Positions 35,801-38,800 of a stretch of 64,000 bases of DNA are shown piece by piece (positions within the stretch are counted from its first letter, which is position 1; each line of letters opens with the position of its first letter). The position numbers were made by a program. The stretch lies in the NCBI RefSeq assembly GCF_054482595.1, contig NZ_CM137008.1. One strand, written 5' to 3'.

Positions 35801-38800
35801 ATAGAAGTGCTATCCGGCAGCTTCTTAATGAATCCAGTTCAAAGCCCTGTAAAGGAACAAGCCGCTTTTGCTGTAAAAAACGTTCGGCAAGAGTGACTAA
35901 TTTGCTTTGTTCCTGTTCCGTCAGACCCGTTAAAAGGGGGATCGATAGTGCTTCCTGCCAGGGAAGGGCAGTTTGATATGCTGATTCTTGTACTTTCCAG
36001 GGCCACTTAATCATCGTTTTGCTCGCAAACTCGTCACTTGAACAAAATTGCACGGACAGGGACTGTTAAAATGCCAAATTTCCTGGCATCATGGCAACCA
36101 TCTGAACGGAGAGATGCCGGAGCGGCTGAACGGACCGGTCTCGAAAACCGGAGTGGGGGCAACTCCACCGGGGGTTCAAATCCCCCTCTCTCCGCCAAAA
36201 TTCAATCACTTACACATCATTAAGTCAGTGACAAAAATCACACTTGGAATTACTTGGAATATTTTCTTGGAATATTTTCAGGTAACGGGACATCAAGTGT
36301 TGGTGAAACTTTAACCTTCCTGTCATAGATTAGCACTTGCCCTTCGGTTTTGTGACCAGAGAAAAGTTGCTTATCCCGGCTGCTTCCTTCATAGTCTGAA
36401 ATTCCTTTCGCCTTCAGATCATGAAAGGTGAAGTCGGTTAAAATACCTGAAATTTTTCCAGCACGATTTCTTGCATCTACCCACATTTCGTTAAAGCCTT
36501 TGTACATATATCGGTTGCCGTATTGATTGCTGATCACATAGGCAGATTTTGGTAACTGTTTTGCTTTTTCGATCGCTGCCTGTAATCGTGGACTCCATGC
36601 TTTTATCTGTTTTTTTCCGGTTTTCCCTTGCTGGATGAATATCCCGTCGTTTCCAATCTGTTCCCATTTCAGCGATAACACATCGGAAACCCTCGCTGCA
36701 CACAGATAGGCAATTTCCATTGCGATAAAAACAGGAAGAGGTGCAACGCTTAATACTGCCTGGTATTCTTTGTCGGTTACATATCGTTCGCGGTTTTTGG
36801 CCTTGAATTTACTTACACCTGCACATGGGTTAGCCTTCACGTACCCTCGCTCATACCCCCAACTGTAAACACGGGACATACTGCTTTTTTCATGGTTGGC
36901 TTGCGTTTTACTCTGCTCCCCTCTTTTGTCCATGTATCGACGGATGTGTTCTGGTTTTATGGAATCCGCTGGTACCTTACCGAATACGGCAAGCAACTTT
37001 TTTTGATGTTGCAGATAATCTTTTTGTGTTCTTGGACTAAGGTCACTGTAATAGGCGCTGGCGAGGAATTTTTCCCACAAGCGACCGAATGTCATTGCAC
37101 GATCGCGATTATTTACAGTTTCCTCATACTTTTTCCATAAAGCAGCTAAACCATCCTTGATGGCGGTTAGTGTGACAGATTCTCTGGATGTTGGTTTCCA
37201 TACATAACTATATTTATTTGGGTATACATTTGGAGGTAATTTTTCGTGTTCAGGATTTTTCCTTCGTCTTCCCATCAGATCGCACCAAAATTCGGCTCTA
37301 CCTCGCGTGGTGGTAAAGTTTTATTGCAGGTAAATAGATCCCGGCTGACAATCGGTTTGCCACTACGATTGGTATAGAACGGAAGCCCGTTTTCCATTAA
37401 CCATTTTCGCTGGTGGCTTGCATATTTGCAGCCCGTTAATATTTGCAATTCATCTTCGGTTAAAAATAAGCTGCTCATAGCTATATCTCATAACCGCCGC
37501 TAACTATATACGGTTAGCGGCAATTAGGGTTGAACATTAAAAATCAGCCTGACTCGGGATCAGTTTTTGCCAGATAGCTGAAACGTATTTTGCCTGGTAA
37601 CGAGCGTCATCAAGTGCATTATGGCGCTCACCTTCGAATGGAATAGCCGTTCTGGCATCGAAGTCTATGGCTTTCCCCAGCTCAACGATTGTGCGTACAT
37701 CGCGATCGTTGTAGTAACGCCACGGGCAGGGGATCCCCTGCCGTTCGTATGAACGGCGCAAAATCGTGTTGTCGAAGTTGGCTCCATTTCCCCAGACCTG
37801 AACAAAAAATTCACCGGAGTTTTCGTCGATAAATTCCCGCAATTGTAACAGTGCATCATCTAACGGGATTTCATCGGTCATAATGGCAGATTGCGCTTCG
37901 CGTGATTGCTTAAGCCACCATTTAATGGTGTCCCGATCAATGACTCCGCCAGCAGTTTCCAGATCGATAGTCTTACTAAATTCCGGTCCCATATCTCCGG
38001 TTTGCGGATCGAAAAATATTGCACCTATTGAGATGATCGGGGCATCAGGATTTTTTCCCATGGTTTCAAGGTCGATCATTAGATGGTCACACGTCCTGCT
38101 GGTGGATGTGATTTCGTGATGACCGTTCACCTTAATTGAGTGATCTGCCGTCTCGCCAGTTTTATTATCGCTGGCGTGATGCTGATTGCCGCCAGGGTTC
38201 TCCTTGTGTGGATGTTCAGCGCCTTCCATTTCCTCCGGATCATTTTCCTGAACTTCAACCTGATTCTCTTCATCGAATGTTTCCTGGTATGTTGCGTCGC
38301 CCATCACCGCGCCACAATCAGGGCAGTTGACGCCACCGCTCTGACCGCAGGCGGTGCAGACTTTTTCCGGTTCCTGTTGCGCTACTGATTCGGATTGTTT
38401 CGTTTCTGGCTCGTTTTGTAACGCATTTGGGCTGTTTTGTTCCGCTTTTTGGTCGTTCCGTTCCGATTCATGCTGGTTCTGGTTCACAGAATCGCGAGTC
38501 TGGATCCCCTTGACCCATTTCGGATCATTAGGGTCGCTAATCCCCTCAACAAATTCACCACGCGATACAGCAAGTAACTTATCGGCGTCAGGCTGGCTGA
38601 TATTGGCTGCCTGCATAATTTTGTTTACTTCGTCAGCGGTGACTTTTACTTGGTTAGCGGAACTCACCTGCGACTGAGCATCCAGCGACTGCGCGTTCTG
38701 GCCATGTTCAGTTGTATCCGGTTCCATTGTTTCAGTTGTTGCCTGTTCACCTGCCATTGCGTCAGATGGTTGTGGTTTTTCTTCTTCTGTTTCACGCTCA

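What the first reader, a model, noticed from the sequence alone, without database searches (positions are those of the whole stretch)
36108..36300. Prophage attL at serU with integrase-proximal direct repeats
The tyrosine integrase gene ends ~50 bp after tRNA-Ser, and the interval carries three CTTGGAAT copies (two as CTTGGAATATTTT tandem), partly inside the integrase 3' end. These are candidate arm-type Int-binding sites.
Basis: partly seen in the sequence, partly recalled or inferred. Interest (0 to 1): 0.4.

Follow-up and report, generated by a model that had tools for sequence, protein, structure and literature searches.

The report
Integrase arm sites at prophage attL
The three CTTGGAAT repeats next to the serine tRNA gene serU are almost certainly the sites where a lambda-like prophage's integrase grips one arm of its attachment site; this is a textbook arrangement, mapped here in a prophage family not yet characterised.

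Summary
CTTGGAAT occurs only three times in the 64-kb window, all within 31 bp (36243, 36253, 36266). The repeats lie 46-76 bp past serU and overlap the last codons and stop codon of a lambda-type integrase gene. The crossover core is the serU anticodon stem-loop (36136-36154), not the tRNA 3' end, so most of the tRNA 3' half in this lysogen is phage DNA. attR is outside the window. In the nearest complete genome (Ecol_881, 39.2-kb prophage) and in E. coli 042 it carries two more exact copies: one direct at -119 and one inverted at -54 from the anticodon-loop centre. Together with the three direct copies at +100, +110 and +123, this matches the orientation pattern I measured in lambda attP (P1, P2, P'1-P'3). 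Two perfect IHF (host DNA-bending protein) consensus sites lie on the P arm. Relatives with 48-68% identical integrases keep the site positions but use different 8-mers, and the 8-mers change along with the integrase N-terminal domain. That domain is predicted to have the lambda arm-binding fold. This is a new member of a known kind: well supported but not surprising, and protein binding is untested.

The parts
36108..36197 (+). serU, tRNA-Ser(CGA), a hybrid gene in this lysogen. The 5' part is bacterial. From the anticodon region onward it is supplied by the phage.
   Evidence: ARAGORN. It is identical to K-12 serU except for G36155 (A in K-12) and C36166 (T in K-12), a compensatory pair in the variable-arm stem. 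attR copies in 042, Ecol_881 and four other genomes keep the K-12 alleles.
36136..36154 (+). Core (O) of attL, the interval in which strand exchange must have occurred. It covers the anticodon stem-loop CCGGT-CTCGAAA-ACCGG (36135-36151). The probable 7-bp overlap is the anticodon loop at 36140-36146, and the stem arms are the probable core-type Int sites.
   Evidence: The segment duplicated at attR starts at 36136. The phage-allele markers at 36155 and 36166 are in attL and the bacterial alleles are in attR, so the crossover lies to their left. The exact overlap is inferred from the known anticodon-loop class of tRNA integration sites.
36155..36197 (+). Phage-derived 3' part of the tRNA, part of the P' arm.
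   Evidence: Allele segregation between attL, attR and the empty site.
36200..36212 (+). Candidate IHF site (an H' analogue), ATTCAATCACTTA, with one mismatch to WATCAANNNNTTR.
   Evidence: The site is weak on its own, since one-mismatch matches occur about 1.1 times per kb. However, phage Evi has a perfect consensus within 1 bp of this position (+56, against +57 here).
36243..36250 (+). Arm-type site P'1 (CTTGGAAT), centred about +100 to +107 from the anticodon-loop centre. It overlaps the int stop codon.
36253..36262 (+). Arm-type site P'2 (CTTGGAATAT), inside the int 3' coding end.
36266..36275 (+). Arm-type site P'3 (CTTGGAATAT), inside the int 3' coding end.
   Evidence: The only common variant in close relatives is ATTCCAAC in the int sense.
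36250..37275 (-). int, a lambda-type heterobivalent tyrosine integrase of 341 aa.
   Evidence: Pfam PF00589, PF22022 and PF14659. phmmer aligns it to full-length lambda Int from residue 1, E 1.2e-12. The AF2 model has a three-strand-plus-helix N-domain. The top Foldseek hits are full-length lambda Int.
37275..37478 (-). Candidate excisionase or directionality factor (DUF4224, 67 aa), overlapping the int start.
   Evidence: Pfam PF13986, E 1.5e-16. The genes at the same position immediately upstream of int in mEp390 and 118970_sal3 are annotated as excisionase; their homology to this ORF was not tested. Function was not tested.

Best explanation
Window 36108-36278 is attL (B-O-P') of a roughly 39-kb lambdoid prophage integrated in the anticodon loop of serU. 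The three CTTGGAAT(AT) repeats are the P'1-P'3 arm-type sites. They are bound by the N-terminal domain of the adjacent integrase, while the integrase's C-terminal domains bind and cut the core at the anticodon stem-loop. The full attP spans about 255 bp. It contains P1 (direct, -119), an IHF site (-92), P2 (inverted, -54), a second IHF site (-37), the core (0), the tRNA 3' half, an H'-like site (+57), and P'1, P'2 and P'3 (+100, +110, +123). IHF-induced bends let Int bridge arm and core sites, as in the lambda intasome. The neighbouring DUF4224 protein probably directs excision. Shown here: the repeats, their positions and orientations on both arms, the crossover interval, the family-wide conservation of geometry with changing motif, and the lambda-like N-domain. 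Inferred: actual Int and IHF binding, the exact 7-bp overlap, and which sites serve integration versus excision.
For: 1. CTTGGAAT occurs three times in 31 bp and nowhere else in 64 kb.
2. The P arm at attR of E. coli 042 and of Ecol_881 carries the same exact 8-mer once direct at -119 and once inverted at -54. Ecol_881 is 99.5% identical to the window's prophage and colinear with it. Five copies in 400 bp arose in 0 of 10000 simulations.
3. Lambda attP, measured directly, has the same pattern: P1 +, P2 -, P'1-3 + with spacings of 10 and 11 bp, and P'3 lies across the int stop codon. Here the spacings are 10 and 13 bp and P'1 lies across the stop codon.
4. An unbiased search for the most frequent 8-mer in the attP of each relative returns a different motif at the same coordinates:
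   - mEp390: TTCGCCAT at -118, -53 (inverted), +127 to +158.
   - 118970_sal3: TGAGAAAA at -117, -54 (inverted), +101, +111, +124.
   - Evi: TTGGTATA at -118, +100, +111, +123.
   - BUCT709: CTTAGAAT at +100, +111, +124 and -53 (inverted, one mismatch).
   - ST101-KPC2phi6.3: +101, +111, +124.
   More triple repeats appear at the int end in IMG/VR contigs.
5. Motif similarity follows the sequence of the N-domain beta-strands. For example, NKYSYVWKPTS goes with ATTCCAAG, NKYSYYYKPTSKEC with ATTCTAAG or ATTCTACG, and sal3 and mEp390 differ in both.
6. In the diverged P arm of strain MEI003, homology begins just outside P1. The substitutions in the aligned P arm all fall outside the two 8-mers. 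In close relatives the substitutions fall mostly in the spacers of the P' repeats.
7. Two perfect IHF consensus sites lie in the 120-bp P arm, against 4 in the whole 64-kb window. The one at -92/-91 recurs in three relatives.
8. Int aligns with lambda Int from residue 1. The AF2 N-domain is E17-19, E23-26, E34-38 and H39-59 at pLDDT about 85. The best structural matches are full-length lambda Int.
9. The Int residues encoded by P'2 and P'3 (333-341) fall in a tail with pLDDT below 50 that is not conserved in the family. The DNA repeat is therefore not explained by a protein constraint.
Against: - No binding or recombination data exist for this phage, and I found no paper describing its att site.
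- attR was read from other strains, not from the window's own genome.
- The P' sites lie 100-130 bp from the crossover, against 55-85 bp in lambda.
- The H' candidate has a mismatch.
- The second P-arm IHF site is not seen in the relatives.
- Evi lacks an exact inverted P2.
- BUCT709 lacks a clear P1.
Confidence: 0.85

Rival explanations
1. The repeats are binding sites for another protein, such as the DUF4224 directionality factor, Fis or a repressor, rather than for Int.
For: Directionality factors also bind short direct repeats in att arms. The DUF4224 gene lies next to int. No binding data exist.
Against: In lambda, Xis sites lie on one arm only, the P arm. Here the sites are on both arms in the 1 direct + 1 inverted + 3 direct pattern of lambda Int arm sites. 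The motif also changes together with the Int N-domain sequence.
Confidence: 0.05
2. The repeats are a functionless product of replication slippage, or a coding repeat in the int 3' end (IPRKYSK).
For: Two copies form a perfect 13-bp tandem and lie in coding sequence.
Against: Exact copies also exist in non-coding DNA 39 kb away at attR, one of them inverted. Relatives carry different motifs at the same positions. The encoded tail is unconserved and predicted to be disordered. One copy lies largely outside the ORF.
Confidence: 0.04
3. The repeats act mainly as a regulatory element for int, for example an Int autoregulatory operator or a roadblock to convergent serU read-through. In this reading recombination architecture is not their main role.
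For: Arm-type sites double as int regulatory sites in KplE1 (title and abstract of PMC2951348). No terminator-like site follows serU before the int 3' end.
Against: The sites are at the 3' end of int, not at its promoter. The P-arm copies are separated from int in the prophage. The conserved spacing relative to the core points to a role in the recombination complex.
Confidence: 0.05

Closest known systems
Phage lambda attP and attL (arm-type sites P1, P2, P'1-P'3 with IHF sites H1, H2, H')
   Same: - Heterobivalent Int with an N-terminal arm-binding domain.
- Five arm sites oriented +, -, +, +, +.
- Three tandem sites spaced about one helical turn apart at the int 3' end, overlapping the stop codon.
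- IHF consensus sites between arm sites and core.
- int lies next to the P' arm, so the int-proximal junction is attL.
   Different: - The arm motif is CTTGGAAT(AT), where lambda has (C/A)AGTCACTAT.
- The target is the serU anticodon loop, not the intergenic lambda attB.
- The P' arm carries 54 bp of tRNA, which pushes the P' sites out to +100 to +130.
- P2 lies at -54, not -111.
- The integrases are only about 22% identical.
- The family has Lys where lambda Int has catalytic Arg311.
- The candidate directionality factor is a DUF4224 protein, and no Pfam lambda-Xis family matched it.
tRNA anticodon-loop integration sites of tyrosine integrases (sublocation classes of Williams, Nucleic Acids Res 2002; recalled from my own knowledge, not read here)
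   Same: The block of identity between phage and host starts in the 5' arm of the anticodon stem and runs to the tRNA 3' end. The element lies 3' of the tRNA and restores the gene. The symmetric anticodon stem flanks a 7-nt loop.
   Different: Nothing in the sequence conflicts with this class. The cleavage positions have not been mapped.
Related phages with the same integrase family: mEp390, Evi, Salmonella phage 118970_sal3 (which I take to be ST64B-like), Klebsiella ST101-KPC2phi6.3
   Same: The integrases are 48-65% identical. The attP geometry is the same to within 1-2 bp. Integration is into anticodon loops of tRNA-Ser or tRNA-Leu.
   Different: - The arm motifs differ.
- mEp390 has four P' copies and targets a tRNA-Leu(UAA).
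- Evi has its attP inverted relative to int.
- The mEp390 record annotates only a 'putative attP' core.
- I found no description of arm sites for any of these phages.

Membership tests
Lambda-type heterobivalent tyrosine integrase / attP system | Tyrosine recombinase catalytic domain with the R-K-H-R-H-Y residues | tested here: inconclusive
   Pfam PF00589 matches at E 1.7e-11. R195, K218, H285, H308 and Y317 align with lambda R212, K235, H308, H333 and Y342 and are invariant. The second Arg (lambda R311) is Lys288 in every family member. The family is clearly active, because mEp390 and Evi are deposited as phage genomes, and 1093 of 5426 genomes carry this integrase gene contiguous with serU.
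Lambda-type heterobivalent tyrosine integrase / attP system | Separate N-terminal arm-binding domain (three-stranded sheet plus helix) | tested here: met
   phmmer aligns the protein from residue 1 of lambda Int, including MGRRR..LPPN.Y. The AF2 model has E17-19, E23-26, E34-38 and H39-59 at pLDDT about 85. The top Foldseek hits are full-length lambda Int chains over about 361 alignment columns. Pfam returned no arm-binding-domain family among its matches.
Lambda-type heterobivalent tyrosine integrase / attP system | Arm-type sites, different in sequence from the core sites, on both arms of attP | tested here: met
   Five exact CTTGGAAT copies lie at -119, -54 (inverted), +100, +110 and +123. 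The core is CCGGT/ACCGG.
Lambda-type heterobivalent tyrosine integrase / attP system | Sites for a DNA-bending host factor (IHF) between arm and core sites | tested here: met
   Perfect WATCAANNNNTTR matches lie at -92 and -37, and a one-mismatch match at +57. This is a consensus match only.
Lambda-type heterobivalent tyrosine integrase / attP system | Int N-domain physically binds the arm sites, and the arm sites are required for recombination | not testable with these tools
   This needs EMSA or footprinting and att-site mutagenesis.
Lambda-type heterobivalent tyrosine integrase / attP system | A directionality factor encoded next to int | tested here: inconclusive
   A 67-aa DUF4224 ORF overlaps the int start. 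The genes at the same position upstream of int in mEp390 and 118970_sal3 are annotated as excisionase. Function is untested.
Anticodon-loop class of tRNA integration sites | Crossover within the anticodon stem-loop, with the duplicated segment running from there to the tRNA 3' end | tested here: met
   The attR duplicate starts at 36136. Phage and bacterial alleles at 36155 and 36166 segregate to attL and attR. The same left boundary is seen in sal3, Evi and BUCT709.

The most novel reading that the evidence does not exclude
Two of the three P' sites lie inside the int coding 3' end, and no terminator-like site separates the convergent serU gene from int. Int occupancy of P'1-P'3 could therefore feed back on int expression, or block serU read-through, in the lysogen. 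A related point is that this family keeps a fixed attP geometry while swapping 8-mers, which gives a natural series for reading the arm-recognition code of the N-domain. A third point is that the family uses Lys in place of the second catalytic Arg.
Probability: 0.1. Interest if true: 0.45.

Novelty: new member of a known kind. Interest (0 to 1): 0.25.

Why it matters
Prophages with this integrase sit at serU in about one in five complete E. coli genomes (1093 of 5426). serU is also a recognised site for Stx phages and for effector-carrying prophages (PMC8065619, PMC7067040). A base-level map of attP, covering core, arm sites and IHF sites, has three uses:
- It allows exact prophage boundary calls.
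- It supports the design of serU-targeted integration vectors.
- It predicts which resident prophages can cross-react.

The family-wide series of same geometry with different 8-mer and different N-domain is a ready data set for studying how lambda-type integrases read their arm sites. None of this changes the established model.

Tried and rejected
- **attR in the window.** I searched the window for attR or any duplicate of the tRNA 3' half and found none. The prophage runs past the window end. By colinearity with Ecol_881, attR would lie near window coordinate 75315.
- **Phage record ON470583.** It is a partial prophage cut-out that ends inside gene J, so it has no attR.
- **Core at the tRNA 3' end or T-loop.** I rejected this because the phage-specific alleles at 36155 and 36166 are already on the attL side.
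- **First shuffle test.** It counted homopolymer words and gave a misleading 1%. I repeated it using only non-overlapping 8-mers that contain all four bases.
- **Promoter and terminator scan of 35900-37700.** Nothing relevant turned up.
- **Literature searches.** Searches on serU, attP, arm-type, mEp390, ST64B and DUF4224 found serU named as an integration locus but no description of these arm sites. The prefix search for 'serU' mostly matched 'serum'.
- **IMG/VR contigs.** Many were cut 3 bp after the int stop and were uninformative. A subgroup (L064, L066, L069, L071-L075) shows no tRNA next to int and was not resolved.

Full report
**Observation.** The window is the E. coli yeeJ-asnT-mtfA-serU region followed by a lambdoid prophage. 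ARAGORN places tRNA-Ser(CGA) at 36108-36197 on the + strand. A 341-aa ORF on the - strand at 36250-37275 is a tyrosine integrase. A 67-aa DUF4224 ORF (37275-37478) and a RecE-like exonuclease gene lie upstream of int, further into the prophage. CTTGGAAT occurs exactly three times in the 64-kb window, at 36243, 36253 and 36266. The last two copies each start a perfect tandem 13-mer CTTGGAATATTTT. The first copy overlaps the int stop codon, and the other two lie in the last eight codons. The number of copies in the window is what chance predicts (3 against 3.03). Their clustering within 31 bp is not: 3 of 10000 simulations of the 103-bp interval gave three copies of any complex 8-mer.

**Where the junction is.** The window matches the empty K-12 site perfectly up to the tRNA 3' end, apart from two substitutions: G36155 (A in K-12) and C36166 (T in K-12). 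These form a compensatory pair in the variable-arm stem. No second copy of the tRNA 3' half exists in the window, so attR lies beyond it.
- About 20% of complete E. coli genomes (1093 of 5426) carry this integrase at serU.
- In E. coli 042 the attR duplicate starts at CGGTCTCGAAAACCGG, which is window 36136, and carries the K-12 alleles at both marker positions.
- The same holds in Ecol_881. That prophage is colinear with the window and 99.5% identical to it. Its attR lies 39.2 kb from the attL core.
- The same holds in four other genomes.

Phage alleles are on the attL side and bacterial alleles on the attR side. Strand exchange therefore took place between 36136 and 36154, in the anticodon stem-loop CCGGT-CTCGAAA-ACCGG. 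The tRNA from about the anticodon onward is supplied by the phage. This is the anticodon-loop type of tRNA integration site. That the 7-nt loop is the overlap region is an inference from that class, not a result shown here.

**The other arm.** I set the centre of the anticodon loop (36143) as 0. The P arm at attR of 042 and of Ecol_881 then holds the same exact 8-mer once in direct orientation at -119 and once inverted at -54. The window copies are at +100, +110 and +123. Five copies of a complex 8-mer in 400 bp did not occur in 10000 simulations. I measured lambda attP in the same way. P1 is at -141 (+), P2 at -111 (-), and P'1, P'2 and P'3 at +55, +65 and +76 (+), with the int stop codon at +81. 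The number of sites, the orientation pattern, the spacing of about one helical turn in the triple site, and the overlap with the int 3' end are the same in both phages. The P arm also contains two perfect matches to the IHF consensus WATCAANNNNTTR, at -92 and -37. The whole 64-kb window holds only four such matches. A one-mismatch match lies at +57 (36200-36212), just after the tRNA. It is weak on its own, but phage Evi has a perfect match within 1 bp of this position (+56).

**Comparative test.** A tblastn search of phage genomes found integrases 48-65% identical to this one. For each phage I asked which 8-mer is the most frequent within 200 bp either side of the anticodon loop, with no prior motif.

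| Phage | Top 8-mer | Positions from loop centre |
|---|---|---|
| mEp390 | TTCGCCAT | -118, -53 (inverted), +127, +134, +145, +158 |
| 118970_sal3 | TGAGAAAA | -117, -54 (inverted), +101, +111, +124 |
| Evi | TTGGTATA | -118, +100, +111, +123 |
| BUCT709 | CTTAGAAT | +100, +111, +124, and -53 (inverted, one mismatch) |
| ST101-KPC2phi6.3 (attL only) | TGAGAAAA | +101, +111, +124 |

An IHF consensus lies at -91 in mEp390, Evi and BUCT709. IMG/VR contigs add more triple repeats at the int end: ATTCTACG, TATACCAA, ATTCT(C/T)T and ATTCCA(A/G)G. The geometry is therefore fixed to within a base or two while the sequence of the sites changes. The site sequence follows the N-terminal domain. Integrases with VYPNKYSYVWKPTS use ATTCCAAG, those with NKYSYYYKPTSKEC use ATTCTAAG or ATTCTACG, those with a KPKGTK or KPEGST segment use TATACCAA, and sal3 and mEp390 differ in both. 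In the diverged P arm of strain MEI003, homology starts just outside P1. The substitutions in the aligned P arm all fall outside the two 8-mers. Among close relatives, substitutions fall mainly in the spacers of the P' repeats. The commonest exception is a G-to-C change in P'3.

**The protein.** Int aligns with full-length lambda Int from residue 1 (E 1.2e-12). An AlphaFold2 model built on an 18-sequence alignment (mean pLDDT 84) has three strands (17-19, 23-26, 34-38) and a helix (39-59) ahead of the core-binding and catalytic domains. Its best structural matches are the full-length lambda Int chains 1z1b, 5j0n and 1z1g. The tail at residues 322-341 has pLDDT below 50 and is not conserved in length or sequence. 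This tail includes the residues encoded by P'2 and P'3. The ORF appears simply to run through the arm sites until it meets a stop codon, so protein coding does not explain the repeat.

**Mechanism.** The best explanation is the lambda model. The Int N-domains hold the arm sites, the C-terminal domains hold the anticodon-stem core sites, IHF bends the DNA between them, and the DUF4224 protein probably sets the direction towards excision. The sequence anatomy, the crossover interval and the co-variation are shown here. Binding, the exact cleavage points and the roles of individual sites are inferred. I put this explanation at about 0.85. The rivals are sites for another protein, a functionless slippage or coding repeat, and a primarily regulatory element. 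Each fails to explain the two-arm, lambda-like orientation pattern that shifts together with the N-domain.

**Comparison with what is known, and novelty.** This is a new member of a known kind. serU is a documented prophage locus (PMC7067040, PMC8065619). The mEp390 record marks a putative attP core. A 2025 paper carries out in vitro recombination with ST64B attP and attB but never uses the term arm-type (PMC12455584). I found no description of the arm sites of this family. The differences from lambda are these:
- The motif is different.
- The target is a tRNA anticodon loop.
- The P' arm is longer, because it carries the tRNA 3' half.
- P2 is closer to the core.
- A Lys replaces the second catalytic Arg.
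- The candidate directionality factor is a DUF4224 protein.

**Verdict.** Interest is low to moderate (0.25): the annotation is solid and useful, but it holds no surprise for a specialist.

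Noticed in passing
L097 (phage ev099, LR597635.1, about 24370-24900), mEp332, PhiR70_1 and SerU-LTIIb match the serU 3' half in the same way (their flanks were not read): ev099 has a lambda-type int. 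About 2.5 kb from that int it carries a complete serU-type attR junction. The junction includes the P arm with both CTTGGAAT sites, the core, the bacterial-allele serU 3' half, and at least 340 bp of E. coli chromosome downstream of serU. It is 97.4% identical to 042 attR over 536 bp. It looks like a relic of aberrant excision of a serU prophage, followed by exchange of the int/att module.
   Followed up: partly
window 36412-36414 (codon for Int K288); alignments A2 and A3: Every member of this integrase family has Lys (FHDLKAKG) where lambda Int has the second catalytic Arg (R311, FHELRS). The family is evidently active.
   Followed up: partly
L006 (phage Evi, LR597642.1, 31400-31800): In Evi the whole attP is inverted relative to int. 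The gene lies next to the P arm and the three tandem sites are on the far side. Every other relative examined has int next to the P' arm.
   Followed up: partly
window 36155 and 36166: The phage-supplied tRNA half differs from the host serU by a compensatory G-C for A-T pair in the variable-arm stem. Lysogens therefore express a slightly different but still paired tRNA-Ser(CGA). These two bases mark phage-derived versus host-derived serU halves in any genome.
   Followed up: yes
L002 (K-12 attB, just 3' of serU), corresponding to window 36198-36212: The unoccupied E. coli site has a perfect IHF consensus, TATCAATGACTTA, immediately after serU. The phage P' arm has the similar ATTCAATCACTTA at the same place. 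Phage-host similarity therefore runs about 15 bp beyond the tRNA end.
   Followed up: partly
L003 (E. coli 042, NC_017626.1, 2236233-2251983): The serU prophage of strain 042 has a frameshifted int. It also has a second integrase-bearing element, with its own capsid and terminase genes, inserted in its terminase large-subunit gene.
   Followed up: no
window 50019-50328: The prophage carries a cluster of four tRNA genes (Met, Lys, Thr, Gly). In the near-identical phage record ON470583.1 the same tRNA cluster lies just downstream of the antiterminator Q gene, the usual lambdoid position.
   Followed up: no
L004/L016 P arm, -150 to -128 from the core (outside the window): A perfect 6-bp hairpin, CACCTG-AAAA-CAGGTG, lies just outside P1 in the common P arm. 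It is absent from the MEI003 variant. It could be a sib-like or terminator element for transcripts crossing attP, but no T-run follows it.
   Followed up: no
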